Part shown: piece after piece, positions 12,230 to 31,319 of the stretch | Layout of the letters: each line of letters starts with the position of its first letter | Numbering within the stretch: the stretch's first letter is position 1 | Assembly: GCA_023137275.1 (NCBI GenBank) | Contig: JAGLPO010000006.1 | Coordinates: forward strand, 1 to 47,369 | Direction of reading: 5' to 3' | From: Candidatus Parcubacteria bacterium | GTDB lineage: Bacteria > Patescibacteriota > Patescibacteriia > Patescibacteriales > UBA12075 | Length of the DNA stretch: 47,369 nucleotides | Program-made: the position numbers and the translations under genes | Notes under the pieces: generated by a model | Told to the model about the DNA's origin: nothing | Seen by the model: the letters and a program-made list of their open reading frames with translations, nothing else | Database searches by the model: none

Positions 12230-13588
12230 ATGCGTAAAAAACTGAAAAAAATCATCTTACTTTGCGGAGATATTAGCGTTTTATATATTTCACTATATTT
12301 AACGCTTCTTGTCCGCTACCTGGAGCAGCCGTCAGCCAGTACCTGGGCTTTGCATATTGGCCCTTTCTCTCTGGCGTTTTTCTTTTGGCTGATTATCTTT
12401 TATATTTCCGACCTCTATAACCTGCATTACGCGGTTAATAATTCAAAATTTTTTAATATCACTTTCCGGGCCGTCGCGATCGCCGGCGGGCTGTCAGCCG
12501 TATTTTTTTATGTCAACCCAAATATAAACATTGCCCCTAAAACCAATTTGGTAATTTATTTAATAATATTTACCATCATTTTCATTCTTTGGCGCCGGCT
12601 ATTTAATCGGGCATTGCTTACCAAGATGACCAAGGAAAATATCGCTGTTATCGGCTATGACCCAAACGTTCAGGAAATAATTGATACTCTGCGCGACCAG
12701 CCCCATCTGGGATACAGTATTAAATTAATTGTTAGCAGCCGCGTTCCTCGCGGGGGAAACAACGAAATGATAGTAACCGAAAAAATTTTCGGATTAAAAG
12801 AAACGATAATAAAACAAAACATTTCCACGATTATTTTTGCCGCCAACCCGCGCCAGTCCCCGGAACTTAGAAAAATAATGTTTTCCTGTTTGCCGCTTAA
12901 AATTGATTTTGTCGGCTTGCCCGGCTTTTATGAGCATCTTACCGGTAAAATCCCGATTGAAGCGATCAGCCAGATGTGGTTTCTGGAAAACCTGAATGAA
13001 GGCAGCAAGAAATGGTTTAATATTGCCAAACGCGTTTATGACATTATTTTCGCGTTTAGTATTCTCCTTGTTACCGCTTTGCTCTGGCCTTTGATTGGAA
13101 TAATTATAAAACTGGAAAGCAAAGGCCCGATCTTCTTTTATTCGCTCCGCGCCGGCCTGAATGGCAACTTTAAGCTGGTTAAATTCCGCACTATGCGCGA
13201 AGAAAACAACCAGCGCACTTTAACCACCACTGATGACCCGCGCGTTACCGTGTTTGGTTCGTTTCTCAGAAAAACGCGTATTGACGAGATACCGCAGGTG
13301 TTGAATATCCTGGCCGGCCACATGAGCTTTGTCGGCCCCCGCCCGGAGCGCCCGGAATTCATATCTGAACTCAAAAAAGAAATTCCTTTTTACGAAGAAA
13401 GGCTTTTGGCAAAACCGGGCCTTACCGGCTGGGACCAGGTCTCGGGCGAATATCATTCCCCTACCCGCGAAGATACCTTAAAGAAGCTACAATACGACCT
13501 CTATTACGTTAAAAACCGCTCCATATATTTAGACTTGTCAATTATCTTAAAGACGATTGCAACGGTTTTAAGGAGAGGAGGAGTATAA
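12230..13588 (+). CDS. Polyprenyl glycosylphosphotransferase (bacterial sugar transferase, WbaP/EpsL-like priming enzyme)
   Basis: 452 aa. N-terminal TMs plus a C-terminal domain with KFRTM...DEIPQVLNILAGHMSFVGPRPERPEF...KPGLTGWDQV. Confidence 0.85.
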   Translation: MRKKLKKIILLCGDISVLYISLYLTLLVRYLEQPSASTWALHIGPFSLAFFFWLIIFYISDLYNLHYAVNNSKFFNITFRAVAIAGGLSAVFFYVNPNINIAPKTNLVIYLIIFTIIFILWRRLFNRALLTKMTKENIAVIGYDPNVQEIIDTLRDQPHLGYSIKLIVSSRVPRGGNNEMIVTEKIFGLKETIIKQNISTIIFAANPRQSPELRKIMFSCLPLKIDFVGLPGFYEHLTGKIPIEAISQMWFLENLNEGSKKWFNIAKRVYDIIFAFSILLVTALLWPLIGIIIKLESKGPIFFYSLRAGLNGNFKLVKFRTMREENNQRTLTTTDDPRVTVFGSFLRKTRIDEIPQVLNILAGHMSFVGPRPERPEFISELKKEIPFYEERLLAKPGLTGWDQVSGEYHSPTREDTLKKLQYDLYYVKNRSIYLDLSIILKTIATVLRRGGV

Positions 13589-13592
13589 TTGA

Positions 13593-14118
13593 TAGACGGC
13601 AGACAACAGACGGCAGACAGCAGGCAGACGGCAGGTAGATAGCAGACAGTAGATAGATAACAGGCAGTAGGTAGAAATTAATTAGAGAGGTGTTGACTTT
13701 ATTAAACCGCAAATAATTTTATAGCCTTCAAATACTTTTACTTTAAGCGCGTTAAACTCATCATCAGAAATATATCCCAAATCATTAGCTAAGATGATAT
13801 GATTTTGTAATTCCGTGTTTGAGCCTCTGGCATACAAATAAAATTTTATTCTATCTTTAGAATGATAGCGACCATAGCCTTCGGCTATATTAGCCGTAAT
13901 AGAAGCGGCCGCTCTTCTTATCTGGCTGGTTAGGCCAAATAATTCCTCCTTGGGAAATTGTCTGGTGAGAGAATAAATTTTTAGCACAACTTGATGATTT
14001 TTTTGCCACGCAATTAGATGAGTAAAATGATGTATATTGTTATTGGACATAGAACTTAGAGTCCTACTGCCCGCTATCTGCGTTCTGTTGTCTGCTGTCT
14101 GTCGTCTGTGGTCTGCTA
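13593..14118. mobile_element. Composite element: long heptamer-repeat inverted arms flanking a four-helix-bundle gene
   Basis: The left arm 13593-13675 (tagacggcagacaacagacggcagacagcaggcagacggcag...ggcagtaggtaga) and the right arm 14064-14118 (ctactgcccgctatctgcgttctgttgtctgctgtctgtcgtctgtggtctgcta) are mutually complementary. Same repeat family as the short hairpins. No transposase is visible, so mobility is inferred. Confidence 0.6.
13682..14050 (-). CDS. Four-helix-bundle protein (23S rRNA intervening-sequence protein family; the family that includes DGR Avd)
   Basis: FTHLIAWQKNHQVVLKIYSLTRQFPKEELFGLTSQIRRAAASITANIAEGYGRYHSKDRIKFYLYARGSNTELQNHIILANDLGYI is the characteristic pattern. I prefer the start at M25 (14050), because upstream codons read through the repeat arm. 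Confidence 0.8.
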   Translation of the reverse strand: MSNNNIHHFTHLIAWQKNHQVVLKIYSLTRQFPKEELFGLTSQIRRAAASITANIAEGYGRYHSKDRIKFYLYARGSNTELQNHIILANDLGYISDDEFNALKVKVFEGYKIICGLIKSTPL

Positions 14119-14196
14119 ACAACCAGCAGAGCTCCCAGCCGCTTGCGCAACCAGGAGCTCTTTATGCCGGACCTTTCCCGTAATAATTTAATAGAC

Positions 14197-16542
14197 TCAC
14201 TGCCAGATCGACTGTTGCAAACTTTTCAAATCAAAACTTAATATTTCATAAGCCTCGTCCGTGATCCAATTCTTATTATTATAAAATTTAATTTGTTTTT
14301 CTATCAGCCAAATATGCAGATTAATATATTTTTTTATCGCGGTTTTTAATTTTTCATTCGTGGAATTTTCCCATTGATCATATTTCTTTTCCAAATGGTC
14401 AATATTTTTGATCAGCCAATTTTTAATTAACAGTTTCTTAATATCACCGGAAACGAATAAACATTCAATATCATCCCTGACAGCGGAAAAATTTAATTCT
14501 CTTGTTCTTGTTAAATCAATTATTTCATTGCTATCATTAATCGTAAATTGATACTCGTGTACGTCGCCCAAACAGGTAACCCCGCTAATTAAATCATCGT
14601 TTGGCCCGCTAAAAGTGTCATCAGTTAATATATCAATCCCTAATTGATAAACGCCATCAGCTGTACCCTGGAGTATAACCCGGTACGGCCCGGGGGCTGG
14701 GTTTATAATTGTGCTAAACTCGTGCAAGCCATCAGGGCCGGTATAAAACGCGCCTTCTACTTCATTCACTTCTGCGCCAACTTCTGCGCCAGAAACAAAA
14801 TCTTTACCTACTCTCTTTTCCTCAGGCGTAATAACGACAAAATCAACCGGACACATAGCGCGGACAAGTAAGACGTCTTTAATGTCTTTCCAGGAAGCTT
14901 CATAATAATCGTCAGTGTTGCTGCCGGTTAATATTTTAATCACTTCTTTCTGCGATTTGGTAACAATATCCCTGTGTTTGGAATCACTGATTGTAGTAGT
15001 GCTTGCGCCGGGCAAGGCGATCAAACTGTTTGTCAACACGGTTGTGTCACCCTCACCCATTATTAAACAATCATCATCACCTAAAAAAATACAATCCGGA
15101 TAGCCGTATTTCCATTTATTGTCATAAATATAAGTGTCTGGCACGACGTGTAAATATCTAAGCGTGCTGTCTGTTATTGGGTCGCTGTAAATATTAGTAG
15201 CTTCGGCTCTGGTAGCGACCACTTCGATATTTTCATTCAAATCATCTATAAAGCTGTTTACCGGATAATTAGCCGGATAAACCCGCGTCTGCCAATCATT
15301 GCCATCTTTATCCATTAAATAATCATAGGTTGGTAATAACTCAGACACACTGGTAATATCGTCCCTAATATAATTAATTAAATTTTTCTCTTTCTTTTTA
15401 GCTTCTTTGTTTAAAATATATTTTAAAATATTGCCTTTTATGCCGGAAAAATACCCGCCTTCATTAATCAGGTATGAATCTGTTGATCCAATGTGCGGGG
15501 TATTGAGAAATATCAGCTGATCAACATCATTATCATATTCAGCTCCCTGCACATAACTCCGCGCCACAAGCCCGCCCATGCTGTGCGCCACAATGTCCAC
15601 CTGTTCCTGGCTGGTGGTGGCCTTAATATAATTTATATAATTTTTTAAATCAATGGCAGTCTCATTGTTGCTTTGACGCCAGTCATAAGGAAATAAAAAT
15701 AAATTCTCATTCAAGGCATAGCCGTTATTCGTAAGCGCCTCAGTTAAATATTTATAAGTATGCAGAATCGGATCCAACATCATCACCCCATCCTTTTCCC
15801 AACTCCCCCCAATCCCCGGGATAAGGATGAGTGGATCGGTTGTTTCTGGTTCGTCTGGGATAGTATAGGTTACTTCAAGATACGGCGCTTTATTAATGTC
15901 GTCTTCATAATAATTAATATCAAAACGAAATCCCATCCAGACACCCCCAGGAGTTTCTGGTCTTATATCATCTACATCATACCCTGTACGCATTCCAAAC
16001 GAACTCCAACCAGAGGTTGAAATGCCGCTAATCCCGGTCGTATTTAAGGCTATGGCATTGTACTCGCCAACACTATAATCGCCCCATTTGAAGCGACCTG
16101 ACCACTCTTCTGGATTATTAACAGTACCAAAATCATTAAAATCTTCACTCTCCAAGGTCTCTCCAACACCCTGCACAATAACAGCGGAGCTGAGAATGTC
16201 ATCGCTATAATCATCCTTTACTCCGATAATAAACAAATTAATGGACGCGTCTTGGATTATGGCATTATCCGGGATTGACGAAGTATCAAACGCCACGCCA
16301 CCTCTATAAATTATACAATAATCAGTTGTAAAACATTCGGCACGTACAAAATGCCCGACATTGGAATGAACAATTCCTGATACGGCGTCATGTCTTATAT
16401 TCCAGCTACCGCTCGTAGAATTTATTGTCCCATCAGAAGAAGACGTTGTATAAAATTTGTCAGTAACTACTGCGGCATTTACACTGCTAATAAAAAAAAG
16501 ACAAATAAATAAATTAATTACAACCAATAATAAATTTTTCAT
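14197..16542 (-). CDS. Secreted multidomain alpha/beta hydrolase, LCAT/lipase-like
   Basis: Signal peptide MKNLLLVVINLFICLFFISSVNA. Hydrolase core LILIPGIGGSW...FPYDWRQS...VDIVAHSMGGLVARSY (GxSxG nucleophile elbow and an LCAT-family-like YDWR). The ~230-aa N-terminal domain and the C-terminal beta-sandwich-like and helical parts are unassigned. Confidence 0.65.
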   Translation of the reverse strand: MKNLLLVVINLFICLFFISSVNAAVVTDKFYTTSSSDGTINSTSGSWNIRHDAVSGIVHSNVGHFVRAECFTTDYCIIYRGGVAFDTSSIPDNAIIQDASINLFIIGVKDDYSDDILSSAVIVQGVGETLESEDFNDFGTVNNPEEWSGRFKWGDYSVGEYNAIALNTTGISGISTSGWSSFGMRTGYDVDDIRPETPGGVWMGFRFDINYYEDDINKAPYLEVTYTIPDEPETTDPLILIPGIGGSWEKDGVMMLDPILHTYKYLTEALTNNGYALNENLFLFPYDWRQSNNETAIDLKNYINYIKATTSQEQVDIVAHSMGGLVARSYVQGAEYDNDVDQLIFLNTPHIGSTDSYLINEGGYFSGIKGNILKYILNKEAKKKEKNLINYIRDDITSVSELLPTYDYLMDKDGNDWQTRVYPANYPVNSFIDDLNENIEVVATRAEATNIYSDPITDSTLRYLHVVPDTYIYDNKWKYGYPDCIFLGDDDCLIMGEGDTTVLTNSLIALPGASTTTISDSKHRDIVTKSQKEVIKILTGSNTDDYYEASWKDIKDVLLVRAMCPVDFVVITPEEKRVGKDFVSGAEVGAEVNEVEGAFYTGPDGLHEFSTIINPAPGPYRVILQGTADGVYQLGIDILTDDTFSGPNDDLISGVTCLGDVHEYQFTINDSNEIIDLTRTRELNFSAVRDDIECLFVSGDIKKLLIKNWLIKNIDHLEKKYDQWENSTNEKLKTAIKKYINLHIWLIEKQIKFYNNKNWITDEAYEILSFDLKSLQQSIWQ

Positions 16543-16645
16543 AAAGTTTTCAACAATTAATTATTTCTATTTTATTGTAGCAAAAAGCAGGTGATGAGAA
16601 GCTAAAGAAAAGATAAAATTTTGATAAAAAAATAATAAAAGAATA

Positions 16646-16671
16646 ATAAAAAATTCGAGCTAAGCTCGAAT
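16646..16671 (-). terminator. Intrinsic terminator after sat/cysC
   Basis: Minus strand reads attcgagc-tta-gctcgaat followed by ttttttt, ~30 nt after the stop at 16702. Confidence 0.65.
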
Positions 16672-16701
16672 CTTTATTTAATCTTAGATATTTATTAATA
16701 A

Positions 16702-18300
16702 CTATATATAATTATTTTCTTCTAAATATTCTAAAACAATTTTACCGCACTGTTGCACGCTCATCTGGTCAGTCTTAATGTGAATATCCGGCTTTTTCGG
16801 ATTATCATAAGGGTCGTCAATGCCGGTAAATTGGGGAATTTCGCCGGCCCGGGCTTTTTTGTACAAGCCTTTAGGGTCGCGCTGTTCGCAAACAGACAGC
16901 GGAGCATCAACAAAAACTTCTATATAGTTATACACAGTCTCGCGCAATTCATCGCGCTGTTCTTTGTAAGGCGTAATAAAGGAAGCCATCACGCCCACGT
17001 TGTTTCGCGACAGCATATCAGCCACAAAGCCGATGCGGCGAATATTCTCGTTCCGGCCTTCCCGGTCAAAGCCCAAACCCTTGGTCAAACGCTCGCGAAC
17101 CACATCCCCGTCTAAACGCTCCAGTCTGGCGTTATTATTTTTTAGATCCGCGTAAACCTGGTCAGCCACCGTGGTTTTGCCGGAAGCGGACAAACCGGTA
17201 AACCAAAGCACAAAGCCTTTTCTATTATTATTTTGTTTATACATATTATCTACTAGCGGGTCACTGGCATTAATTAAAAAATTATACACATCCGGGCGTA
17301 TAAGATATTCAGGCGGCTCTTCTTTCATTTTAATATAACCGCGCAATTTGGTACCGCTAAATCTAATTGTATCATTTTCATCATATTCGTCAATAAATCC
17401 ATGGCTTTTGTTTTTCTTATTATAAACCACTTCATTAAAAGACAAAATTTTTATCCCTAATTCAGTTTCACTAAAATCATTAAATATTTTTTGCGCCGCC
17501 TCTGGGGCATAGAAATTACCAACCCCGGCATGGTCCCTACCAACAATAAAATGCGTGCAGCCAAAATTCCTGCGAATCAAAGCGTGCATAAGCGCCTCGC
17601 GCGGGCCTCCGTAGCGCATCTTGATCGGCAAAGCGGCCAAGACTGCCTTATCTTTAAAATTATTATCCAGTAGCAGCTTGTAACTGGCAATAATATACTC
17701 GTCCTTAAAGTCAGCGATCTTTTTATCCCCTACTACCGGATGAACCAAAAGGCCATCTATGTTTTCCAAGGCTTTGTTAAGTAAAAATTCATGCCCCCGG
17801 TGCGGCACATTCCTTGTCTGGAAAGCAACAATTTTTTCCCAGCCCCTGCCGGAAAACTCTCTTTTAGTTTCAGCCGGATTCAAATGATACTTATCATAAT
17901 GATCATCAGGAACTTCCACTATCTCTATGTCCCCGCCCAATAAATAATCCCCTGATCCCATAATTTCATCAACCATTGGATGGCCGGGATTTAAGGTGCC
18001 GTAAACTTTCCTAAGATGCTCTGCCTTGGGGTGGGGATAAAATTCAATATTAAAAATTCTAACAATCGCGTCATTATTAATTAATAATAATTCTTTCTCG
18101 TTTTTAACATTCTCATAATCCTCTGCGCCAATATCAACCGTTATCGGTATACTCCAAATTCTGCCATTTACAAGACGCATATTGTCTAAAACCGAATTAA
18201 AATCAGCTTGTTTAAGAAAGCCTGTCAAAGGCGCGTAGGTGTTATTACTGATATTAATCGCGTCCTGGATAATATTTGATTTTACATTTATATTTTTCAT
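16702..18300 (-). CDS. Bifunctional sulfate adenylyltransferase / adenylylsulfate kinase (PAPS synthase, Sat-CysC fusion)
   Basis: ATP sulfurylase motifs QTRNVPHRGHE and IVGRDHAGVG in the N-terminal ~350 aa. APS kinase P-loop WFTGLSASGKTT and LDGD in the C-terminal ~170 aa. Confidence 0.9.
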   Translation of the reverse strand: MKNINVKSNIIQDAINISNNTYAPLTGFLKQADFNSVLDNMRLVNGRIWSIPITVDIGAEDYENVKNEKELLLINNDAIVRIFNIEFYPHPKAEHLRKVYGTLNPGHPMVDEIMGSGDYLLGGDIEIVEVPDDHYDKYHLNPAETKREFSGRGWEKIVAFQTRNVPHRGHEFLLNKALENIDGLLVHPVVGDKKIADFKDEYIIASYKLLLDNNFKDKAVLAALPIKMRYGGPREALMHALIRRNFGCTHFIVGRDHAGVGNFYAPEAAQKIFNDFSETELGIKILSFNEVVYNKKNKSHGFIDEYDENDTIRFSGTKLRGYIKMKEEPPEYLIRPDVYNFLINASDPLVDNMYKQNNNRKGFVLWFTGLSASGKTTVADQVYADLKNNNARLERLDGDVVRERLTKGLGFDREGRNENIRRIGFVADMLSRNNVGVMASFITPYKEQRDELRETVYNYIEVFVDAPLSVCEQRDPKGLYKKARAGEIPQFTGIDDPYDNPKKPDIHIKTDQMSVQQCGKIVLEYLEENNYI

Positions 18301-18308
18301 TTAATATA

Positions 18309-18394
18309 ATGCGAATGCTACGAATTAATATGCACCCCACTTCGCTAAAGCTACGAGGGGTAAAAATATAGCGAATTGCGAATTATGCGAATTA
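18309..18394. repeat. GCGAATT heptamer repeats plus a small hairpin in the cysQ-sat spacer
   Basis: atgcgaatgctacgaatta ... cccc-acttcgctaaagctacga-gggg ... gcgaattgcgaattatgcgaatta. The motif is the complement of the ATTCGCAT loop motif of the hairpin family. Confidence 0.7.
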
Positions 18395-19204
18395 TTATAT
18401 GGAAAGTTTATAATTTTCTAAATAATTGATTATTTGATCATGTATAATGCCATTACTGGCAACATAGCCGTGGATATGCGGATCGTCTTGATTATACTTA
18501 TATCTTTTTCCCTTAAGGTCAGTAAGCCTGCCGCCGGCTTCATGGAGAATAATGTCAGCCGCGCAAATATCATATTCCTGCGGATGATTACTTGGGTTTA
18601 AATTTATATCCGCCCGGTCTGACGCAATCAGAACCGCCTTAAGCCCAATGCTTCCGCAAGGGATAATTCTGGTAATATTAAATTCCTTAGCTACTCTTGT
18701 TTCCATCTCTGATTTGTGAAAACGGCTACCAAGGAATCTGGCTTTACTAACATCACTCACCTTGCTTACATTGATCTTTTTCGCTCCCTGATCTTTGATT
18801 TGCCCATACGCGCCCTTTCCCTCAATGGCATAATACAAAATATCTTTAGCTGGCTGATATACTACTCCCAATATTGGCCTGCTCTTTTCCACCAGGGCGA
18901 TCATTATCGTAAAATCCCCGGTTTTATTTATAAAATCCTTAGTGCCATCTAAAGGATCAATGATCCAAACCCGCTCTTTTTTTAGCCGCGCCTTGTCATC
19001 TTCGGTTTCTTCAGACAATACGCCATAATCATGTTTGCTTAAACCCTTAAGAATAATCTTTTCCGAGGCTAGATCCGCTTCTGTCACCGGACTGTCATTA
19101 CCTTTATCTTTTATTTGATAATCTTTGTTATAAAAAGACATAACCTCTTCACCGGCTTGTTTTATCACGTTTAATACTTGGTTTAATATTTCTTTATCTT
19201 TCAT
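18395..19204 (-). CDS. cysQ: 3'(2'),5'-bisphosphate nucleotidase CysQ (inositol monophosphatase superfamily)
   Basis: LSEETEDD and WIIDPLDGTKDF metal-binding motifs, about 270 aa, directly upstream of sat/cysC. I prefer the ATG at 19204; the ORF-track start at 19231 is a TTG. Confidence 0.75.
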   Translation of the reverse strand: MKDKEILNQVLNVIKQAGEEVMSFYNKDYQIKDKGNDSPVTEADLASEKIILKGLSKHDYGVLSEETEDDKARLKKERVWIIDPLDGTKDFINKTGDFTIMIALVEKSRPILGVVYQPAKDILYYAIEGKGAYGQIKDQGAKKINVSKVSDVSKARFLGSRFHKSEMETRVAKEFNITRIIPCGSIGLKAVLIASDRADINLNPSNHPQEYDICAADIILHEAGGRLTDLKGKRYKYNQDDPHIHGYVASNGIIHDQIINYLENYKLSI

Positions 19205-19238
19205 TTCTATAGTATAATTAAATAAACTCAAATTGTTT

Positions 19239-19398
19239 ACTAATCCACCTTACGCACCAAACATTTTTACCTTAGAAAAAGTTATAATAAATGTAATTAA
19301 AACAAAAATGCTAAGATAAAACTTGTTCTTATCCTCGTTTTTGTTTTAATTACATTTATTATAACTTTATTTACGTGATAAACGCGTAACATGAGTTA
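19239..19398. repeat. Complete ~160-bp palindromic repeat with a perfect 31-bp inverted core
   Basis: aaagttataataaatgtaattaaaacaaaaa (19278-19308) is the exact reverse complement of 19338-19368. The outer flanks are also partly complementary (ttac.taa..cac.ttacgc / gcgtaacatgagtta). The left half matches 47320-47369 and the right half matches 1-70. Confidence 0.85.
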
Positions 19399-19412
19399 CT
19401 AAATTAACTATA

Positions 19413-20345
19413 ATGAATTTAGCTAAATTTAGCAACCAAAAATTTGTAAAATTTATTTTACCGCTGGGAATAACAGCGCTATTGCTGTCTTATTTGATTA
19501 ATAAAATAGATATAAAATATTTATTGTCGGTTCAAGCGGAAATTAATTGGCTGCTATTAATAACAGCCTCAATTATTCTTATCTTCTTTACCGCTCTGGT
19601 CTTTGCTCTTCGCTGGCAGCAAAGCCTTAAGATAATTGACTATAATATTACAATTATCAAAGCCTTTGTTTTAGCTTTTGCCAGTTTCCCTGTTTCCAAG
19701 CTTACCCCGCTAAACTCCGGCGATCTGGTACGGGCTTATTTCTTAAAAGATAAAATACCAATCACAAAAAATTCCGGCGCGATTGCTCTGGAGCGAATGA
19801 TTGACTTTTTAGTATTGGCCATATTGGCTATTATCGGAGGCATTATCACTCAAAAAATATACTCAATTGGCATTGGAGCCCTGGTAATAATCGTGATCAT
19901 TAGTATTATTATAATGAGCCAAAAAATTAAATTAAAAAAAGAAAGTAAAATAAAAGATAAAATAAATAACTTCCTCTTTGTTTTTAAAAACACTAAAAAT
20001 AAACGAAAAAATTTAATTGCTTTATTTCTTTTTACTATTTTGCTCTGGTTTGGTATAATTATTTATATAAAAATAGTATTTCTACTATTCGGTTATAAGG
20101 TGCCGATTTTTTTAATTTTAGCCTATCAGCCAATAGTGGTTTTTCTGGCCCTGGTGCCGATCACTCTTTCCGGCATAGGATCGCGGGAAACCGCAATGCT
20201 GTTTATTTATTCCGGCCTGGCGCCGGATACGGCTATTTTGTTTACCGGCTTTGCCTACTCCCTGGTTAGTGTAATTCTGCTTTCAATTCTTGGTTTGCCT
20301 TTTTTATATTTTGCTATAAAAAAAGGCCCGCTGTGTAATAAATAA
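19413..20345 (+). CDS. Flippase-like membrane protein (UPF0104 / lysylphosphatidylglycerol-synthase TM-region family)
   Basis: 310 aa, ~8 TMs, ALRWQQSLKII-type motif. This family is commonly paired with a GT2 gene. Confidence 0.6.
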   Translation: MNLAKFSNQKFVKFILPLGITALLLSYLINKIDIKYLLSVQAEINWLLLITASIILIFFTALVFALRWQQSLKIIDYNITIIKAFVLAFASFPVSKLTPLNSGDLVRAYFLKDKIPITKNSGAIALERMIDFLVLAILAIIGGIITQKIYSIGIGALVIIVIISIIIMSQKIKLKKESKIKDKINNFLFVFKNTKNKRKNLIALFLFTILLWFGIIIYIKIVFLLFGYKVPIFLILAYQPIVVFLALVPITLSGIGSRETAMLFIYSGLAPDTAILFTGFAYSLVSVILLSILGLPFLYFAIKKGPLCNK

Positions 20346-20346
20346 T

Positions 20347-21213
20347 ATGAAACCAATCCAACTTTCAATCATCATTCCGGTCTATAATGAAGAAAAAGCC
20401 GTTACTAAAGTAATTAATGATATTAAAGATACAGTAAGTAAAATCCCTGATATTGAATATGAGATCATTTTAATTAATGACGGATCAACTGATAATAGTT
20501 TGCAAATAATTAAACAAATCCAAGGAATAAACGTGCTGGAACATAGCCGCAACAAAGGCTATGGCGCCAGCCTGAAAACCGGCATCAGGCACAGCCAATA
20601 TGAATGGATCATAATAATTGACGCGGACGGAACCTATCCGGTAACGGCTATCCCGGAGCTTATTAAACACACGGATAATTATGACCAGGTAATCGGTTCT
20701 CGTGAAAAAAAAGGCAATGCTATACCGCTTGAGCGCCGACACGCGAAAAAATTCTTAAATCGCTTTGCCGGCTACATTGCCGGAAGAAAGGTCCCTGATC
20801 TGAATTCCGGTTTAAGGATATTTAAAAAAGATATTGTGCGCGCCTATTGGGGGCTTTTCCCAACTCGCTTTTCTTTTACTTCAACTCTTACCATGGTCTG
20901 CCTAAGCCATGGCCATGATACTAAATTTATCCCGATAGACTACTACGAGCGGACCGGTGAATCCAGCATCAGGGCCTTGGATTTTTTCAATTTTCTTAAG
21001 CTTATCTTTAAACTTTCGCTGTTTTTTAAGCCGATCAAAGTGTTTGCTCCGCTAAGCGGTTTAATTCTAATGATCCCGTTAATTTTAGCTATTGCTTATC
21101 TTTTTGGATTTTCAACTAAATTTTTTGATACAACCATTATTGTTCTCTCGGCCACGGCCTTGCAAACATTATTTTTCGGCCTTTTGGCTGAAATAGTTAT
21201 ACATAATAAATAA
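20347..21213 (+). CDS. Polyprenol-phosphate glycosyltransferase (GT2, GtrB/DPM1-like, with C-terminal TMs)
   Basis: LSIIIPVYNEEKAV...ILINDGSTDNS...IIIDADGTYP, plus two C-terminal TM helices. Confidence 0.8.
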   Translation: MKPIQLSIIIPVYNEEKAVTKVINDIKDTVSKIPDIEYEIILINDGSTDNSLQIIKQIQGINVLEHSRNKGYGASLKTGIRHSQYEWIIIIDADGTYPVTAIPELIKHTDNYDQVIGSREKKGNAIPLERRHAKKFLNRFAGYIAGRKVPDLNSGLRIFKKDIVRAYWGLFPTRFSFTSTLTMVCLSHGHDTKFIPIDYYERTGESSIRALDFFNFLKLIFKLSLFFKPIKVFAPLSGLILMIPLILAIAYLFGFSTKFFDTTIIVLSATALQTLFFGLLAEIVIHNK

Positions 21214-21228
21214 ATAACATTATATTTC

Positions 21229-22641
21229 ATGACTGACGTACTATTAATCAACCCGCCCTCGCCTAATAAATCCATTATTATCCGCGACCTAAACCGTTCC
21301 GGACGCACCAGCAAAGAGCAGATCATTTGGCCGCAAACCAACATGGCTTATCTGGCAGCCATGCTGCCTGATAATCTATCAGTTGAAATAATTGACTGCA
21401 TTGCCGAGCGCATGTCTTGGCCTGAATTTTTAAAACTCCTTAATAATAAAAAACCACGCTACGTTGTGTCGCATGTTATTACCTCAACCGCAACAAACGA
21501 TTTGCGCGTTTTTAAAGAAGCTAAAAAACTGGGAGCGATAACCATTACAATGGGCCCACATGTTACTGAACTGACTGAAAATACCTTAAAAGAAAACCCT
21601 GATCTTGATTTTATTATGACCCGGGAGTGCGACTATACTTTTAAAGAGCTAATAAACGCGCTGGAGAATAAACAAACCGATCTAAGCGATATTAAAGGCT
21701 TGGCGTGGAAACAGGGGGATAGAATTATTAAAAATGAAAACCGGCCATACATTGAGAATCTGGACGAACTGCCCTTGCCCAGGCACGATCTGCTGCCAAT
21801 TGAAAAATACGTTTTCCCGTTCATGGCATCCGAATTTACCTTTGTGGTTTCGGGCCGAGGCTGTCCTTATCCTTGCGCATTTTGCCGCCAGCCGATCATG
21901 TGGGAAAAAAAAGTCCGCCTTCGCTCGGCCCAAAGTATAATGAAAGAATTAAGAATGCTTAAAAAACTGGGAGTAAATAATTTTATTTTCCATTCTGATA
22001 CTTTTACAGTCAACATGAACATAGTCAAAGAGCTCTGTGAAATGATGGTTGATGAAAAGTTAAATCTAACCTGGGCCTGCAACAGCCGGGTGGATACAGT
22101 GGATAAAGAAACCTTAAAGCTGATGAAAAAAGCCGGCTGCTGGATGATCGCTTATGGCTTTGAATCCGGTTCGCAGGCAATACTGGATAAATGCGAAAAA
22201 AAAGCAACAGTTGAACAAGGCAAAAAAATCGCTCAAATAACCCATGATATCGGCATCAAAGTGTATGGATATTTTATTATCGGCCTGCTGGGTGAAACCA
22301 AAGAAACAATTGAAAAAACCATTAATTTCGCCAAGAGCAACCCAATCACTTTTGCCATCTTTCATGTCGCTTCACCCTTTCCCGGAACTAAATTCTATAA
22401 ACAGGTAAAGGAAAATAACTGGCTTACTAATGAGCAATGGGAGGCTACTGACCAGGGCGGCAATTCACCGGTTGATTACCCTGAGCTTAGCGGAGAAGAA
22501 ATAATGCAAGGCATTAAACGCGCTTATCGCTCATTTTATCTCCGCCCCAAAGCCGTAATAAATATTTTTGGAGCAGTTAGGAATTATAATGATATTAAAC
22601 ATTTAATCAGCGCCGGCGTAAGCCAGCTGCTATGGAAATAA
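21229..22641 (+). CDS. B12-binding-domain radical SAM enzyme
   Basis: CxxxCxxC cluster motif GRGCPYPCAFCRQ after an N-terminal Rossmann-like B12-type domain; 470 aa. Confidence 0.8.
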   Translation: MTDVLLINPPSPNKSIIIRDLNRSGRTSKEQIIWPQTNMAYLAAMLPDNLSVEIIDCIAERMSWPEFLKLLNNKKPRYVVSHVITSTATNDLRVFKEAKKLGAITITMGPHVTELTENTLKENPDLDFIMTRECDYTFKELINALENKQTDLSDIKGLAWKQGDRIIKNENRPYIENLDELPLPRHDLLPIEKYVFPFMASEFTFVVSGRGCPYPCAFCRQPIMWEKKVRLRSAQSIMKELRMLKKLGVNNFIFHSDTFTVNMNIVKELCEMMVDEKLNLTWACNSRVDTVDKETLKLMKKAGCWMIAYGFESGSQAILDKCEKKATVEQGKKIAQITHDIGIKVYGYFIIGLLGETKETIEKTINFAKSNPITFAIFHVASPFPGTKFYKQVKENNWLTNEQWEATDQGGNSPVDYPELSGEEIMQGIKRAYRSFYLRPKAVINIFGAVRNYNDIKHLISAGVSQLLWK

Positions 22642-22642
22642 T

Positions 22643-23335
22643 ATGGAAATAAATAAAAATTCAAACATTGAGGAAATGGCCAAATGGAATGATGAAATGG
22701 TCAGTAAATACCACAAGGATGGTATTCTTTTTGAAAGTAAAAATCCGATTTTAAAAAACCTGGAAATCATGCGGCTTAAAAAAATAATAAAATTGTCTGA
22801 TTTAAAAGCAGATAACAAGCTCCTTGACTTGGGCTGCGGCGAGGGGTTCTTCCTTTACTTACTGCCAAAAAATATACAGGCTAAGGGCGTTGATATCTCC
22901 AGGGTTGCCCTTGAGAGAGCCAAAGAATTACTAAAAGACCGCCCCAATACTTCTGTTGGCTTTGGCAATGCCTATAAAACCGACTTTAATGATAAATCAT
23001 TTGACAAGATCGCCTGCTCTGAAGTTCTGGAGCATGTACCCGAGCCAGAAAAAGTAATCAAAGAAATACATCGCTTGCTTAAAGACGATGGAATTGCCGT
23101 TATCAGCGTACCGGATGAAAAACGGATCAAATGTATTATGAGGATAATTAAATTAACCCGGCTGGATAAATTCCTTCATGCGGCCCGCAAGCAAGAGGAC
23201 TATGACTGGCACTTGCATGAAGCTGATAAAAATTTTATCAATAAAATTACCAAAGACTATTTTAGAATTAAAAAAATTACCCGGGCACCGTCCCTGCTTG
23301 GCTACCGCTTTGTGGTTAGTTTAACTAAAAAATAA
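22643..23335 (+). CDS. Class I SAM-dependent methyltransferase
   Basis: LLDLGCGEG motif I and a downstream FDKIACSEVLEHV. Confidence 0.8.
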   Translation: MEINKNSNIEEMAKWNDEMVSKYHKDGILFESKNPILKNLEIMRLKKIIKLSDLKADNKLLDLGCGEGFFLYLLPKNIQAKGVDISRVALERAKELLKDRPNTSVGFGNAYKTDFNDKSFDKIACSEVLEHVPEPEKVIKEIHRLLKDDGIAVISVPDEKRIKCIMRIIKLTRLDKFLHAARKQEDYDWHLHEADKNFINKITKDYFRIKKITRAPSLLGYRFVVSLTKK

Positions 23336-24501
23336 TGATAAAAAGAGCAAACAAAAAAATTTGGATTTATTCAAGTTTTTTTATTTTGTCAATTTTAATC
23401 GGAATTATTGTTCTTGATTTAAGACCGGATCTTATGATGCGTGACGGGACTCGTTATAACCAAATCGCTCAAGGCCTGGTTAATAATCATGAGTATATCG
23501 CGGTATATGGCCATATCACCTACCCGGGCTATCCTTTTTTTCTGGCAATTATTTATAAAATATTTGGATATAATATATTTGCGGTATTTTTCATTCAATC
23601 TATATTGCTCGGTTTGATCGCCTCTCTTGTTTTCTACATTGCCAGGCGTTTTTTACATTTAAACTATTTATTTTCGTATCTGGCCGGATTAATAATAATA
23701 TTGTGGCCTTACTTGATCCTTTACTCGGTACTCATAATGACTGAAATCTTGTTTATTGTTCTACTGCTCTTATTTATTATCCGCTACTTAATTTTTAAAG
23801 AATCACCCAATGTTAAAAACGCGGTTATAATGGCAATAATCTTAACAATTGCCGTCCTAATAAGGCCCATTCCCCTGTTACTGCTGCCCTGGATAATAAT
23901 ACTTTCGTTATTAATTAAGTGGAAATATAAAGATTTTCATTTTAATAAAAATATATTTAAAAAATATATCATTGCTCTTCTGCTTTTTATATTTTTACTT
24001 TCCCCCTGGATCGCTTTTAGCTCGTACAAAATTGATCGGTTTGTGCCGGTTGGCTCAAATATTTACGCAATTCTTAATAAGGTAAACAAATCATATCTTT
24101 ATGAACGCCAAGTATTTGACACTAAAGGCTACGAGGAAGACGCGGAAATAGTTCTCCATAAAATTCTATTAGTCAAACTAAAAAATACTTATCGCTTTTG
24201 GAAGTCCGGCATAGAGGGCTACCACGCTGAAGCAGTAATAGAAAAATATTCAGCAACTAAATATTTAATATTCATATACCGCGTATTTTATTTCCTGATC
24301 ATCGGCCTGGGCTTTCTCTCGCTCTTTTTCCTAAAAAAAAATAAACACATACTTAATCTTTGGATAATATTATTATACTTTTGGGCTTTTCACACTGCCA
24401 TGCATACCCACCCCCGCTTCACCCTGCCGATTATTCCGATAATTATAATGTTTGCCGTCTTTTCTTTGTCTGAAATAAAAAATTTAATTTTAAAAAAATA
24501 A
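23335..24501 (+). CDS. GT-C fold membrane glycosyltransferase (ArnT/PMT, GT39/GT83-like)
   Basis: 388 aa, polytopic. YPGYPFFLAIIYKIFGYNIF...LLGLIASLVFYIARRF is typical of ArnT-like enzymes. Confidence 0.65.
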   Translation: MIKRANKKIWIYSSFFILSILIGIIVLDLRPDLMMRDGTRYNQIAQGLVNNHEYIAVYGHITYPGYPFFLAIIYKIFGYNIFAVFFIQSILLGLIASLVFYIARRFLHLNYLFSYLAGLIIILWPYLILYSVLIMTEILFIVLLLLFIIRYLIFKESPNVKNAVIMAIILTIAVLIRPIPLLLLPWIIILSLLIKWKYKDFHFNKNIFKKYIIALLLFIFLLSPWIAFSSYKIDRFVPVGSNIYAILNKVNKSYLYERQVFDTKGYEEDAEIVLHKILLVKLKNTYRFWKSGIEGYHAEAVIEKYSATKYLIFIYRVFYFLIIGLGFLSLFFLKKNKHILNLWIILLYFWAFHTAMHTHPRFTLPIIPIIIMFAVFSLSEIKNLILKK

Positions 24502-24514
24502 TTTATTGTATAAT

Positions 24515-24550
24515 AAAAACAGTCCTTAGTTAATTTCAGGACTGTTTTTA
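24515..24550. terminator. Bidirectional intrinsic terminator between convergent genes
   Basis: aaaaacagtcct-tagttaatttc-aggactgttttta: an 8-bp stem with an A-run and a T-run on either side. Confidence 0.7.
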
Positions 24551-24569
24551 TATTGTCTAATTAATTATT

Positions 24570-24861
24570 TCATAAATCGCAATACTGAGTCCGGTCATTT
24601 TCATTCCTGGCAGCCTCAATACCGGCAGCAATAGTCGCGGTCTGCCCAAAATTTCTCGTAAAATTAATAATCTTTATATTCTTATTCTCGCTCGCTACCT
24701 TTTTTAATTCTTTTTTACTATCATCAATTGAGCCATCATTAACCGCGATTATTTCATATTCCACGCCCAAACCGCCAAGCACATTATTAATTTTTTTTTA
24801 ACAATGTCCTGATATTTTTTTCTTCGTTGTATATTGGAATAATGATAGATATTCTTATCAT
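24570..24861 (-). pseudogene. Decayed GT2 glycosyltransferase: frameshift in an A9 run plus loss of the C-terminal two-thirds
   Basis: The ATG at 24861 overlaps the upstream stop (ATGA) and gives MIRISIIIPIYNEEKNIRTLLKKN-stop. Removing one A from the A9 run (T9 at 24791-24799) joins it to ...INNVLGGLGVEYEIIAVNDGSIDDS...NFGQTATIAAGIEAAR. The ORF then ends without the DxD/catalytic part. Confidence 0.7.
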
Positions 24862-27917: not shown

Positions 27918-27921
27918 ATTA

Positions 27922-31318: not shown

Positions 31319-31319
31319 A

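What the first reader, a model, noticed from the sequence alone, without database searches (positions are those of the whole stretch)
16702..19204. Complete PAPS supply-and-recycling module (Sat-CysC fusion plus CysQ) with no assimilatory reduction genes nearby
A single 532-aa protein combines ATP sulfurylase (QTRNVPHRGHE, GRDHAG) with an APS kinase that keeps an intact P-loop (GLSASGKTT). The upstream gene in the same operon is a CysQ-type PAP phosphatase (WIIDPLDGT). No cysH or sulfite reductase is present in the window, but a PAPS-type sulfotransferase lies 12 kb away in the same glycan island (31320-32180). Making PAPS, using it and removing the inhibitory PAP by-product is the logic of a sulfuryl-donor pathway, not of sulfur assimilation. 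The predicted product is a sulfated surface glycan or glycolipid. Sulfated glycoconjugates are known from rhizobial Nod factors, mycobacterial sulfolipids and some cyanobacterial or marine polysaccharides. As far as I know they are not an established trait of reduced-genome CPR-type bacteria, where an ATP-costly pathway like this stands out.
Basis: partly seen in the sequence, partly recalled or inferred. Interest (0 to 1): 0.75.

Follow-up and report, generated by a model that had tools for sequence, protein, structure and literature searches.

The report
PAPS-making genes beside a glycan island
A tiny-genome (Parcubacteria/CPR) bacterium carries a fused enzyme that makes the sulfate donor PAPS, next to a clean-up phosphatase and inside a sugar-coat gene island that holds a carbohydrate-type sulfotransferase, so it most likely sulfates a surface glycan. 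The design is known from other bacteria and turns out to be common in CPR genomes.

Summary
ORF 16702-18300(-) is a 532-aa PUA-like + ATP sulfurylase + APS kinase fusion. It matches the Aquifex aeolicus bifunctional SAT/APS kinase (2GKS) over its full length (E 6e-111, 37% identity), and all catalytic motifs are intact. ORF 18395-19231(-) is an IMPase-family protein that scores best as CysQ. ORF 31320-32180(-) is a soluble sulfotransferase of the heparan-sulfate 3-O-sulfotransferase type with its PAPS-binding residues present. About 67 kb of contig holds no PAPS/APS reductase, sulfite reductase or sulfate transporter.

The sulfuryl-donor reading is supported, mainly by comparison. Around 21 other fused Sat-CysC loci, the neighbours are glycosyltransferases, methyltransferases, CysQ-like genes (adjacent in 8 of 13 assessable loci, counting the window) and sulfotransferases (5 loci). 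None carries a PAPS-reductase-like ORF.

- CysQ does not discriminate, because PAPS reductase also releases PAP.
- The module is not "complete", because no sulfate importer is present.
- The fusion is not rare in CPR: the 120 best homologs share the architecture, and every taxon-specific name among them is a CPR lineage.

Assimilation through a distant cysH could not be excluded, because the rest of the genome was out of reach. Verdict: a new member of a known kind, of moderate interest.

The parts
16702..18300 (-). Fused PAPS synthase (Sat-CysC), 532 aa. PUA-like domain aa 2-129 (nt 17914-18297), ATP sulfurylase aa 137-343 (nt 17272-17892), APS kinase aa 361-509 (nt 16774-17220).
   Evidence: Pfam domains. 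Full-length match to 2GKS, E 6e-111, 37% identity. In 42 fused homologs the catalytic columns Q161 T162 R163 N164, H167, H170, G254 R255 D256, G374 K375, D397 G398 D399, R402, R416, N419 and R422 are invariant, and the window protein carries all of them.
18395..19231 (-). CysQ-like 3'(2'),5'-bisphosphate nucleotidase (IMPase family), 278 aa from TTG. An alternative ATG start lies at 19204.
   Evidence: Pfam Inositol_P 9.8e-50. Best NCBIfam hit is CysQ TIGR01331 at 203 bits, below the 228.8 cutoff, with HisN at 141 bits. Best PDB hit is 3B8B, a Bacteroides CysQ, E 2.6e-30. Orthologs at 41-52% identity lie next to Sat-CysC in 7 other fused loci.
16649..16675 (-). Terminator-like hairpin plus T-run directly after the Sat-CysC stop codon. 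It marks the likely 3' end of the cysQ-sat/cysC transcription unit.
   Evidence: 12-pair stem, 4 G-C pairs, tail TATTATTCTT. This is a consensus match only.
18394..18422 (-). Promoter-like site at the 3' end of cysQ that could drive Sat-CysC separately.
   Evidence: TTTAGA-17-TATAAT, 10 of 12 matches. Weak evidence: 34 such sites were found in the region against 22.6 expected.
31320..32180 (-). Soluble PAPS-type carbohydrate sulfotransferase, 286 aa, the predicted PAPS consumer.
   Evidence: Pfam Sulfotransfer_1 2.7e-18 and Sulfotransfer_3 6.7e-15. PDB hits 3RNL at 2e-27 and heparan-sulfate 3-OSTs at 2e-16. K17 (K or R across the family), R101 and S109 (invariant) and E72 (36 of 37) align to the 5'-PSB, 3'-PB and catalytic Glu positions. 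No transmembrane segment.
24858..31318 (-). Genes co-oriented with and downstream of the sulfotransferase, with very small gaps: GT4, WecB (UDP-GlcNAc 2-epimerase), GT4, two methyltransferases and a PMT_2-type GT-C glycosyltransferase.
   Evidence: ORF map, Pfam. WecB TIGR00236 scores 397 bits, above the 210 cutoff.
32257..33660 (+). Wzx-type flippase (Polysacc_synt), divergent from the sulfotransferase.
   Evidence: Pfam 3.9e-18. A sulfotransferase lies directly next to a Polysacc_synt gene in CPR loci L089 and L092, and 5 kb from one in L090.
12230..13588 (+). Initiating polyprenyl glycosylphosphotransferase at the left edge of the glycan island.
   Evidence: Pfam Bac_transf 1.5e-58. TIGR03025 scores 356 bits, above the 296 cutoff.
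12230..41161 (.). Glycan-biosynthesis island of about 29 kb: 9 GT2/GT4 and 2 GT-C (PMT_2) glycosyltransferases, 7 methyltransferase-domain proteins (one with a TOD1/MUCI70 glycosyltransferase-like domain), 2 epimerases, a flippase and a B12-radical SAM enzyme. The PAPS genes sit in it.
   Evidence: Gene G+C is 0.24-0.42 against 0.42-0.49 in the flanks. The closest relative has Sat-CysC in the same chromosomal slot but different island content.
42266..42352 (-). tRNA-Ser(GGA) at the right boundary of the island, preceded by a ParE-type toxin-antitoxin pair (41601-42128).

Best explanation
The bicistronic unit cysQ-like / sat-cysC supplies and recycles the sulfuryl donor for the glycan island in which it sits.

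**Proposed mechanism**
1. The ATP sulfurylase domain converts sulfate and ATP to APS.
2. The fused, catalytically intact APS kinase domain immediately phosphorylates APS to PAPS. This pulls the unfavourable first step forward.
3. The soluble sulfotransferase (31320-32180) transfers the sulfate from PAPS to a sugar hydroxyl. The acceptor is a polyprenyl-phosphate-linked oligosaccharide built at the cytoplasmic face by the initiating transferase and the GT2/GT4 enzymes. One sugar probably derives from UDP-ManNAc via WecB.
4. The Wzx flippase exports the sulfated unit. The GT-C (PMT_2) enzymes may attach or extend it outside the membrane.
5. The CysQ-like phosphatase hydrolyses the by-product PAP to AMP and phosphate.

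**What is shown:** domain architecture, intact catalytic motifs, gene arrangement, and the recurrence of this arrangement in other CPR loci.

**What is inferred:** the enzyme activities, the acceptor, where sulfation takes place, and that the sulfotransferase 13 kb away is the consumer.
For: - **Architecture and motifs:**
- **The APS kinase is not the degenerate regulatory type.** It keeps GLSASGKTT and LDGD, where the Penicillium regulatory domain has GYMNSGKD and LLGD (alignment).
- **The sulfotransferase** has PAPS-binding and catalytic residues and its closest solved relatives are carbohydrate sulfotransferases. It is embedded in a GT4-WecB-GT4-MT-MT-GT-C operon beside Wzx.
- **Pfam census of 142 ORFs within 8 kb of 21 other fused Sat-CysC genes:** Glycos_transf_1 13, methyltransferases 12, Inositol_P 10, GT2 10, epimerases 6, sulfotransferases 5, Polysacc_synt 3, Bac_transf 3.
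- **Sulfotransferase-like ORFs near Sat-CysC** in L006, L008, L013, L016 and L024.
- **CysQ-like gene within 100 bp of Sat-CysC** in 8 of 13 assessable fused loci, either upstream or downstream. These copies are 41-52% identical to the window copy. Every one tested scores best on the CysQ model, whereas a non-adjacent paralog scores best on HisN.
- **No PAPS-reductase signature (ECG[ILV]H)** in any fused locus. The same search found one in the split sat/cysC locus L054, which serves as a positive control.
- **No cysH, sulfite reductase or cysteine synthase** in about 67 kb around the genes.
- **A proven precedent for the design:** the Cobetia marina CPS cluster carries cysNC-cysD-cysQ-sulfate permease plus a sulfotransferase, and its product contains Rha-2-sulfate by NMR (PMC11766843).
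Against: - The sulfotransferase is 13 kb away, in a different transcription unit and at a very different G+C (0.27 against 0.41). The link between the two is circumstantial.
- The closest relative (88% identity) has Sat-CysC in the same slot, with no CysQ-like or sulfotransferase gene within 10 kb.
- Four sulfotransferase-centred CPR loci have no Sat-CysC within 10 kb.
- The CysQ-like protein and all its Sat-adjacent orthologs score below NCBIfam's trusted cutoff for CysQ.
- No sulfate importer was found.
- The rest of the genome could not be searched for cysH, sir or cysK.
- There is no biochemical or expression evidence of any kind.
Confidence: 0.68

Rival explanations
1. Plain sulfur assimilation. 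Sat-CysC makes PAPS for a PAPS reductase encoded elsewhere in the genome. CysQ removes the PAP released by that reductase, as in E. coli. The position next to glycan genes is incidental.
For: Sat + CysC + CysQ is also the upstream half of PAPS-dependent assimilation (established knowledge). The Methanothermococcus pathway uses ATPS, APSK, PAPS reductase and a PAP phosphatase (abstract of PMC10322725), and its ATP sulfurylase is the second-best PDB hit (8A8D, E 7e-90). In a CPR metabolic survey, APS and PAPS appear in the Parcubacteria pathway map, and incomplete sulfur pathways are scored as "partial" in the gene table (PMC7495880). The rest of the genome was not searchable.
Against: No reductase, sulfite reductase or cysteine synthase lies in about 67 kb around the genes. 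None lies within 8 kb of any of 21 other fused loci, by the Pfam top families and by the ECG[ILV]H search with its positive control. The neighbours are consistently glycan genes and sulfotransferases. CPR bacteria generally lack amino-acid biosynthesis (general knowledge, not tested here).
Confidence: 0.12
2. PAPS is a sulfuryl donor, but the acceptor is not the island's Wzx-dependent glycan. It could be a membrane lipid, a small metabolite, a protein tyrosine, or a glycan encoded elsewhere.
For: Sat-CysC is conserved at the island edge in a relative whose island content differs and shows no sulfotransferase within 10 kb. An LPG_synthase_TM flippase-like gene and a secreted LCAT-like hydrolase flank the PAPS genes. 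The Sat-CysC genes and the sulfotransferase operon differ strongly in G+C.
Against: The only sulfotransferase found in the window is of the carbohydrate type and lies inside a glycosyltransferase operon. Its CPR homologs are always embedded in glycan clusters.
Confidence: 0.12
3. The IMPase-family gene is not a PAP phosphatase. It is a sugar-phosphate or inositol-phosphate phosphatase that serves glycan precursor synthesis. PAP removal is done by another enzyme or not at all.
For: It scores below the CysQ trusted cutoff (203 against 228.8 bits). In L006 the Sat-adjacent copy is fused to an RfaE-domain-I (heptose-7-phosphate kinase-like) domain. That fusion would suit a sugar-bisphosphate phosphatase. 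IMPase-family enzymes are often promiscuous (general knowledge).
Against: CysQ is the best model for the window protein and for every Sat-adjacent ortholog tested, 36-67 bits ahead of HisN, while a non-adjacent paralog scores best on HisN. The best solved relative is a CysQ. Adjacency to Sat-CysC is kept even though the gene order flips.
Confidence: 0.15

Closest known systems
Aquifex aeolicus bifunctional SAT/APS kinase (PDB 2GKS; NCBIfam NF004040)
   Same: Same single-chain order: PUA-like domain, ATP sulfurylase, then APS kinase. The alignment covers aa 2-532 against 8-544, E 6e-111, 37% identity. Both active-site motif sets are intact.
   Different: The window protein scores 484 bits against the 669-bit equivalog cutoff. 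It uses the QTRNVPHxGHE variant rather than QTRNPMHRVH. It lies in a glycan island beside a CysQ-like gene, in a CPR genome.
PAPS module inside a sulfated capsular polysaccharide cluster (Cobetia marina KMM 1449: cysNC, cysD, cysQ, sulfate permease and a sulfotransferase; PMC11766843)
   Same: Same logic: PAPS synthesis, PAP removal and a sulfotransferase are co-located with glycosyltransferases and export genes. In Cobetia the product is proven to be sulfated.
   Different: Cobetia uses the heterodimeric, GTPase-coupled CysDN sulfurylase fused to CysC, an ABC/Kps export route, and has a sulfate permease in the cluster. The window uses a homo-oligomeric-type Sat fused to CysC, a Wzx route, and shows no transporter.
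Rhizobial NodPQ/NodH and mycobacterial CysDNC/Stf0/CysQ sulfation systems (established knowledge, not examined here)
   Same: Dedicated or shared PAPS synthesis feeds a sulfotransferase that acts on a glycolipid or lipo-oligosaccharide. CysQ controls PAP and PAPS levels.
   Different: These systems use CysDN-type sulfurylases, and their sulfotransferases belong to other subfamilies. Those organisms also assimilate sulfate.
Fungal ATP sulfurylase with a C-terminal APS-kinase-like regulatory domain (Penicillium chrysogenum, PDB 1I2D/1M8P)
   Same: Same domain order, with an alignment at E 2e-89.
   Different: The fungal C-domain has lost the P-loop and Walker B motifs (GYMNSGKD, LLGD) and is allosteric. 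The window protein keeps GLSASGKTT and LDGD, so it is predicted to be catalytic (alignment).
Heparan-sulfate 3-O-sulfotransferases and bacterial sulfotransferase 3RNL (Pfam Sulfotransfer_1)
   Same: The window sulfotransferase aligns to them at E 2e-27 (3RNL) and 2e-16 (3-OST-3). The 5'-PSB Lys, 3'-PB Arg/Ser and catalytic Glu positions are conserved.
   Different: The window protein matches no NCBIfam model. Its nearest database homologs other than its own copy are at most 45% identical. The acceptor is unknown.

Membership tests
Bifunctional sulfate adenylyltransferase / adenylylsulfate kinase (Sat-CysC, Aquifex type) | ATP sulfurylase catalytic domain with the QTRNxxHxxH and GRDHAG motifs and the GPRE helix | tested here: met
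   QTRNVPHRGHE, MRYGGPREA and VGRDHAG are present. These columns are invariant in 42 homologs. TIGR00339 scores 342 bits, above the 323 cutoff.
Bifunctional sulfate adenylyltransferase / adenylylsulfate kinase (Sat-CysC, Aquifex type) | C-terminal APS kinase domain with a functional P-loop (GxxGxGK[ST]), Walker B DGD, APS-binding Arg/Asn residues and the lid motif | tested here: met
   GLSASGKTT, LDGDVVR, R416/N419/R422, FITPY and KGLYKKAR..FTGID are present. TIGR00455 scores 230 bits, above the 139 cutoff. T443 replaces the usual Ser, as in 7 of 42 homologs.
Bifunctional sulfate adenylyltransferase / adenylylsulfate kinase (Sat-CysC, Aquifex type) | Both domains in one polypeptide in the order Sat then APS kinase, alignable end to end with the solved enzyme | tested here: met
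   2GKS alignment, aa 2-532 against 8-544.
Bifunctional sulfate adenylyltransferase / adenylylsulfate kinase (Sat-CysC, Aquifex type) | Score above the NCBIfam NF004040 equivalog cutoff (669 bits) | tested here: not met
   483.6 bits. The protein belongs to a divergent CPR clade. The domain-level models are passed.
Bifunctional sulfate adenylyltransferase / adenylylsulfate kinase (Sat-CysC, Aquifex type) | PAPS formation from sulfate and ATP | not testable with these tools
   Needs an enzyme assay.
CysQ 3'(2'),5'-bisphosphate nucleotidase | IMPase-fold metal-binding motifs (the Glu of SEE, DPxDGT, and the WD/YD Asp) | tested here: met
   LSEETE, IIDPLDGT and EYDICAAD are present.
CysQ 3'(2'),5'-bisphosphate nucleotidase | Score above the TIGR01331 trusted cutoff (228.8 bits) | tested here: not met
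   203.3 bits. It is the best-scoring model, 62 bits ahead of HisN. The Sat-adjacent orthologs score 165-210 bits.
CysQ 3'(2'),5'-bisphosphate nucleotidase | Genomic association with PAPS synthesis | tested here: met
   Adjacent to Sat-CysC in 8 of 13 assessable fused loci, with variable gene order.
CysQ 3'(2'),5'-bisphosphate nucleotidase | Substrate preference for PAP | not testable with these tools
   Needs kinetics.
PAPS-dependent carbohydrate sulfotransferase (Pfam Sulfotransfer_1, HS 3-OST-like) | 5'-phosphosulfate-binding loop with a Lys, 3'-phosphate-binding Arg/Ser, and a catalytic base | tested here: met
   GAQK17AATTW, R101-x7-S109 and E72 align with the 3-OST-3 motifs. Conservation across 37 homologs is shown. 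Pfam scores 66.7 bits, above the 22 cutoff.
PAPS-dependent carbohydrate sulfotransferase (Pfam Sulfotransfer_1, HS 3-OST-like) | A carbohydrate acceptor | not testable with these tools
   Only context supports it: the gene lies in a glycosyltransferase operon beside Wzx.
Assimilatory sulfate reduction pathway | PAPS/APS reductase and sulfite reductase encoded with or near sat/cysC | tested here: not met
   None in the window or its 10-kb extensions. None near 21 other fused loci.
Assimilatory sulfate reduction pathway | PAPS/APS reductase, sulfite reductase and cysteine synthase anywhere in the genome | not testable with these tools
   The other contigs of GCA_030634025.1 could not be fetched.
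PAPS module within a sulfated-polysaccharide gene cluster (Cobetia/Vibrio CPS type) | PAPS synthesis genes, cysQ, a sulfotransferase and glycan assembly and export genes in one cluster | tested here: met
   All lie within 12230-41161.
PAPS module within a sulfated-polysaccharide gene cluster (Cobetia/Vibrio CPS type) | A sulfate permease in the cluster | tested here: not met
   No transporter of a sulfate-uptake family appeared in the Pfam scans.
PAPS module within a sulfated-polysaccharide gene cluster (Cobetia/Vibrio CPS type) | A chemically demonstrated sulfated product | not testable with these tools
   The organism is uncultivated, so glycan chemistry is needed.

The most novel reading that the evidence does not exclude
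Sulfated surface glycans may be a widespread and so far unrecognised trait of CPR/Patescibacteria. They would be supplied by a CPR-wide clade of fused Sat-CysC enzymes with a dedicated CysQ-like partner and written by sulfotransferases in hypervariable, horizontally exchanged glycan islands. What metabolic surveys score as "partial assimilatory sulfate reduction" in these genomes would then be a cell-surface decoration pathway, possibly involved in attachment to host cells or in evading phages.
Probability: 0.45. Interest if true: 0.6.

Novelty: new member of a known kind. Interest (0 to 1): 0.4.

Why it matters
If CPR bacteria sulfate their surface glycans, sat/cysC hits in these genomes should be read as envelope decoration. 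At present they are read as a broken sulfur-assimilation pathway. It would also add a strongly anionic modification to the few known surface features of organisms that live attached to host cells. The enzymes themselves and the cluster logic are already known from Aquifex, Cobetia/Vibrio, rhizobia and mycobacteria, so the gain is in distribution and ecology. It is not a new mechanism.

Tried and rejected
- **Genome-contig scan.** I ran it with the single protein instead of an alignment. No survey of named species, and no search of the other contigs of this genome, was then possible.
- **Narrow sulfotransferase HMM.** My first local model missed the L008 sulfotransferase that Pfam reports. I replaced it with a Pfam census of 142 pooled neighbour ORFs and a jackhmmer pass.
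- **Search for PAPS reductase.** No reference sequence was available offline, so I searched for the C-terminal ECG[ILV]H signature and the PP-loop. The only hit was in split locus L054. This is a weak negative for the fused loci. The Pfam census shows only the 25 most frequent families, so one or two PAPS_reduct hits could be hidden.
- **Literature searches.** Searches combining CPR, Patescibacteria or Saccharibacteria with sulfotransferase, PAPS or cysC found no paper that discusses CPR sulfation. Subscription journals are not covered.
- **N-terminal truncation, rejected.** The protein lacks about 28 profile positions of PUA_2, but it aligns from residue 2 to residue 8 of the Aquifex enzyme. 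Its closest relatives share the short N-terminus.
- **Regulatory rather than catalytic kinase domain, rejected** on the P-loop and Walker B motifs.
- **Recent acquisition of Sat-CysC from outside CPR, not supported.** Its G+C (0.41) is near the flanks. All eight taxon-specific names among the top 120 hits are CPR lineages, and the 88%-identical relative keeps the gene in the same slot. No phylogeny was built.

Full report
**1. What is in the sequence**

The window comes from NCBI assembly GCA_030634025.1, contig DAOWBO010000007.1 (59.5 kb). The sulfotransferase's exact sequence (P0121) and the closest Sat-CysC homolog (P0002, from a different assembly) are named "Candidatus Parcubacteria bacterium" by their sources.

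Both ORFs of the finding exist as described.

- **16702-18300(-)** encodes 532 aa. Pfam finds PUA_2 (1.7e-32), ATP-sulfurylase (2.3e-74) and APS_kinase (2.8e-59).
- **18395-19231(-)** encodes a 278-aa Inositol_P family protein (9.8e-50). NCBI's gene call uses the upstream TTG.
- **31320-32180(-)** is a Sulfotransfer_1 protein (2.7e-18).

Pfam scans of the main ORFs of at least 110 aa in the window (37 of the 45 listed; the rest overlap them on the other strand or frame) give the following map.

- The flanks are housekeeping genes: secDF, secA, an M50 protease, RRF and holB on one side; DsbA, gatA and ligA on the other.
- Between them lies a glycan island of about 29 kb (12230-41161).
- The island holds an initiating polyprenyl glycosylphosphotransferase (TIGR03025 above cutoff), nine GT2/GT4 glycosyltransferases and two PMT_2-type GT-C enzymes.
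- It also holds WecB (TIGR00236, 397 bits), a GalE-like epimerase, seven methyltransferase-domain proteins (one also carrying a TOD1/MUCI70 glycosyltransferase-like domain), a B12-radical SAM enzyme and a Wzx flippase.
- No PAPS/APS reductase, sulfite reductase, cysteine synthase or sulfate transporter appears in the window.
- None appears in the further 10 kb on either side, fetched through secDF and ligA.

**2. Are the enzymes intact?**

*Sat-CysC.* The protein aligns end to end with the Aquifex aeolicus bifunctional SAT/APS kinase, PDB 2GKS (E 6e-111; 37% identity).

I aligned 42 fused homologs (A1). The catalytic columns are invariant, and the window protein carries each of them:
- Q161 T162 R163 N164, H167 and H170, the HxxH nucleotidyl-transferase motif
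- the GPRE helix
- G254 R255 D256 with A258 G259
- G374 K375 of the P-loop
- D397 G398 D399 of Walker B
- R402, R416, N419 and R422, the APS-binding positions
- the FTG lid

The kinase domain is therefore not the degenerate allosteric domain of fungal ATP sulfurylases. In the same alignment, that domain shows GYMNSGKD and LLGD.

The only departure is T443 in "FITPY". Most homologs have Ser there, and 7 of 42 have Thr.

The short N-terminus, where the PUA_2 match starts at profile position 29, is shared with the Aquifex enzyme and with the closest relatives. It is not a truncation.

NCBIfam's whole-protein equivalog cutoff is missed (484 bits against 669). Both domain-level models are passed.

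*CysQ-like protein.* It has the IMPase metal-binding motifs.
- Its best NCBIfam model is CysQ TIGR01331 at 203 bits, below the 228.8 cutoff. HisN scores 141 bits.
- Its best solved relative is Bacteroides CysQ, 3B8B (E 2.6e-30). Next comes a histidinol phosphatase at 3e-25.

*Sulfotransferase.* It has no transmembrane segment.
- Its best PDB hits are the bacterial sulfotransferase 3RNL (2e-27) and heparan-sulfate 3-O-sulfotransferases (2e-16).
- It carries K17 (5'-PSB), R101 and S109 (3'-PB) and E72, aligned to the catalytic Glu of 3-OST-3.
- Across 37 homologs, R101 and S109 are invariant, E72 is present in 36, and position 17 is always K or R.

**3. Transcription units**

The cysQ-like gene and sat-cysC lie on the same strand, 94 bp apart.

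A 12-pair hairpin followed by a T-run lies directly after the sat-cysC stop codon (16675-16649). The downstream LCAT-like hydrolase is therefore probably a separate unit.

A promoter-like hexamer pair lies at the end of cysQ (18422-18394). Co-transcription is thus likely but not certain.

The sulfotransferase heads a tightly packed run on the minus strand: ST, GT4, WecB, GT4, MT, MT, GT-C (32180 down to 24858). This run is divergent from wzx.

**4. Comparative evidence**

*The fusion is common in CPR.* The 120 best database homologs (51-95% identity) all have the same three-domain architecture. Every taxon-specific source name among them is a CPR lineage: Parcubacteria, "Patescibacteria group", Nealsonbacteria, Dojkabacteria and Pacebacteria.

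*Individual neighbourhoods.*

| Homolog | Identity | Source | Neighbourhood |
|---|---|---|---|
| P0039 | 54% | Patescibacteria group | CysQ-like domain directly upstream, then GT4, MT, GT4, sulfotransferase, GT4, GT4, MT, MT |
| P0092 | 52% | Dojkabacteria | CysQ-like gene 25 bp upstream |
| P0004 | 63% | JGI metagenome | Sulfotransferase 2 kb upstream, with LPG_synthase_TM, PMT_2 and GT2, the same families as at window 19.4-26.2 kb |
| P0002 | 88% | Parcubacteria | Sat-CysC in the same slot (holB / glycosylphosphotransferase side) beside a different glycan island; no CysQ-like or sulfotransferase gene within 10 kb |

*Metagenome scan.* A scan with the alignment A1 returned 80 more loci.
- I pooled 142 ORFs lying within 8 kb of 21 fused genes and scanned them against Pfam.
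- The commonest families were Glycos_transf_1 (13), methyltransferases (12), Inositol_P (10), GT2 (10), epimerases (6) and sulfotransferases (5).
- Polysacc_synt, Bac_transf and EamA each had 3.
- No reductase family was among the 25 families listed.

*Sulfotransferases.* Sulfotransferase-like ORFs lie near the fusion in L006, L008, L013, L016 and L024.

*CysQ-like genes.*
- A CysQ-like gene lies within 100 bp of the fusion in 8 of 13 loci with enough flank to judge, counting the window. It can be upstream or downstream.
- These copies are 41-52% identical to the window's.
- All those tested score best on the CysQ model, whereas a non-adjacent paralog in L007 scores best on HisN.

*PAPS reductase.* A signature search for ECG[ILV]H hit one ORF next to a split sat/cysC pair (L054). 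It hit none in the fused loci.

*The reverse view.* Sulfotransferase homologs from four named CPR genomes all sit in GT/Wzx/PMT_2/methyltransferase clusters: Patescibacteria, WWE3, Pacebacteria and Peregrinibacteria. Two of these loci carry a second sulfotransferase. None has Sat-CysC within 10 kb.

**5. Most likely mechanism**

Sulfate is activated to APS and immediately phosphorylated to PAPS by the fused enzyme. The cytoplasmic sulfotransferase then sulfates a polyprenyl-linked oligosaccharide before Wzx flips it across the membrane. The CysQ-like phosphatase removes PAP.

The architecture, the motifs and the recurrent gene context are shown. The activities, the acceptor and the pairing of the 13-kb-distant sulfotransferase with this PAPS source are inferred. 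I put this at about 0.68.

**6.

1. Removing PAP does not separate donor use from assimilation. PAPS reductase also releases PAP. cysQ was named for a cysteine requirement in E. coli (established knowledge). Methanothermococcus assimilates sulfate through ATPS, APSK, a PAPS reductase and a PAP phosphatase (abstract of PMC10322725). The discriminating evidence is the gene context and the missing reductases.
2. The module is not complete, because no sulfate importer was found.
3. The ATP-cost argument carries little weight next to a large glycan island.
4. The genes are not unusual for CPR genomes.
   - APS and PAPS already appear in a published Parcubacteria metabolic map.
   - The same paper's gene table scores incomplete sulfur pathways as "partial" (PMC7495880).
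   - I found no paper that links CPR with sulfotransferases or sulfated glycans. The library does not cover subscription journals.

**7. Comparison with known systems**

The enzyme is a divergent member of the Aquifex-type bifunctional SAT/APS kinase family.

The cluster logic matches proven sulfated-capsule clusters. The Cobetia marina KMM 1449 CPS cluster carries cysNC, cysD, cysQ, a sulfate permease and a sulfotransferase, and its polysaccharide contains Rha-2-sulfate (PMC11766843).

The differences here are a Sat-type rather than CysDN-type sulfurylase, a Wzx rather than Kps export route, no transporter in the cluster, and the CPR host. The finding is therefore a new member of a known kind.

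**8. Limits**

Assimilation through a distant cysH therefore remains possible; I put it at about 0.12.
- The CysQ assignment is below the trusted cutoff.
- In one locus (L006) the Sat-adjacent copy is fused to a heptose-7-phosphate-kinase-like domain. This keeps a sugar-phosphatase role in play, at about 0.15.

**9. Verdict**

Interest is moderate, at 0.4. The most novel reading still open is that sulfated surface glycans are a general, overlooked CPR trait. I give that a probability of about 0.45 and an interest of about 0.6 if true.

Noticed in passing
window 19264-19382: A 45-nt inverted repeat (87% complementary, 29-nt spacer) fills most of the divergent intergenic region between the cysQ-like gene and the LPG_synthase_TM flippase-like gene. 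It could be an operator or a structured leader.
   Followed up: no
window 41149-42352: The right edge of the glycan island carries tRNA-Ser(GGA) at 42266-42352(-). Before it lie an antitoxin-like ORF (41601-41849), a ParE-family toxin (41853-42128) and a 61-aa AbrB/MazE-like ORF (41149-41334). This layout is typical of a genomic-island boundary.
   Followed up: partly
window 24858-32180: G+C of the sulfotransferase operon genes is 0.24-0.33 (sulfotransferase 0.27). The housekeeping flanks are at 0.42-0.49 and Sat-CysC is at 0.41. The 88%-identical relative has different island content behind the same Sat-CysC slot. The island core therefore looks hypervariable or horizontally exchanged.
   Followed up: partly
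window 19413-24501: A plus-strand operon encodes an LPG_synthase_TM flippase-like protein, a polyprenyl-phosphate hexose transferase-like GT2, a B12-binding radical SAM enzyme, a methyltransferase and a PMT_2 GT-C enzyme. The radical SAM enzyme's best model is the hopanoid enzyme HpnJ, at 307 bits against a 578 cutoff. Similar radical SAM/PMT_2/Wzx/sulfotransferase sets recur in WWE3 (L090, B12-binding) and Patescibacteria (L089) loci.
   Followed up: no
L006 5570-7087: In a Patescibacteria genome, the gene directly upstream of Sat-CysC fuses an RfaE-domain-I (heptose-7-phosphate kinase-like, PfkB) domain to a CysQ-like phosphatase. A second, stand-alone CysQ-like gene lies 4.6 kb upstream.
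   Followed up: partly
window 14197-16542: A 781-aa protein with an N-terminal signal-like segment and an LCAT/PGAP1-type alpha/beta-hydrolase domain lies just downstream of Sat-CysC, after the terminator-like hairpin. It is absent from the closest relative's locus.
   Followed up: no
window 71-2149: The SecD-like protein carries two PpiC-type rotamase (PPIase) domains between its N-terminal P1 segment and the P1 head. This is an unusual fusion.
   Followed up: no
L004 12316-13422; A2 set: EamA (DMT superfamily) transporters occur in 3 of the 142 neighbour ORFs pooled from 21 fused Sat-CysC loci. One lies about 0.7 kb from the gene in the closest relative. Whether they move sulfate, PAPS or an unrelated metabolite is unknown.
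   Followed up: no
window 13682-14122: A 23S rRNA intervening-sequence protein / bAvd-like four-helix-bundle ORF sits between the initiating glycosyltransferase and the hydrolase. No reverse transcriptase was seen in the window.
   Followed up: no
L045, L047, L050, L053 and other split loci: In many non-fused metagenome loci, sat and cysC are separated by a gap of constant size, about 1.4 kb, which implies a conserved intervening gene. It was not identified.
   Followed up: no
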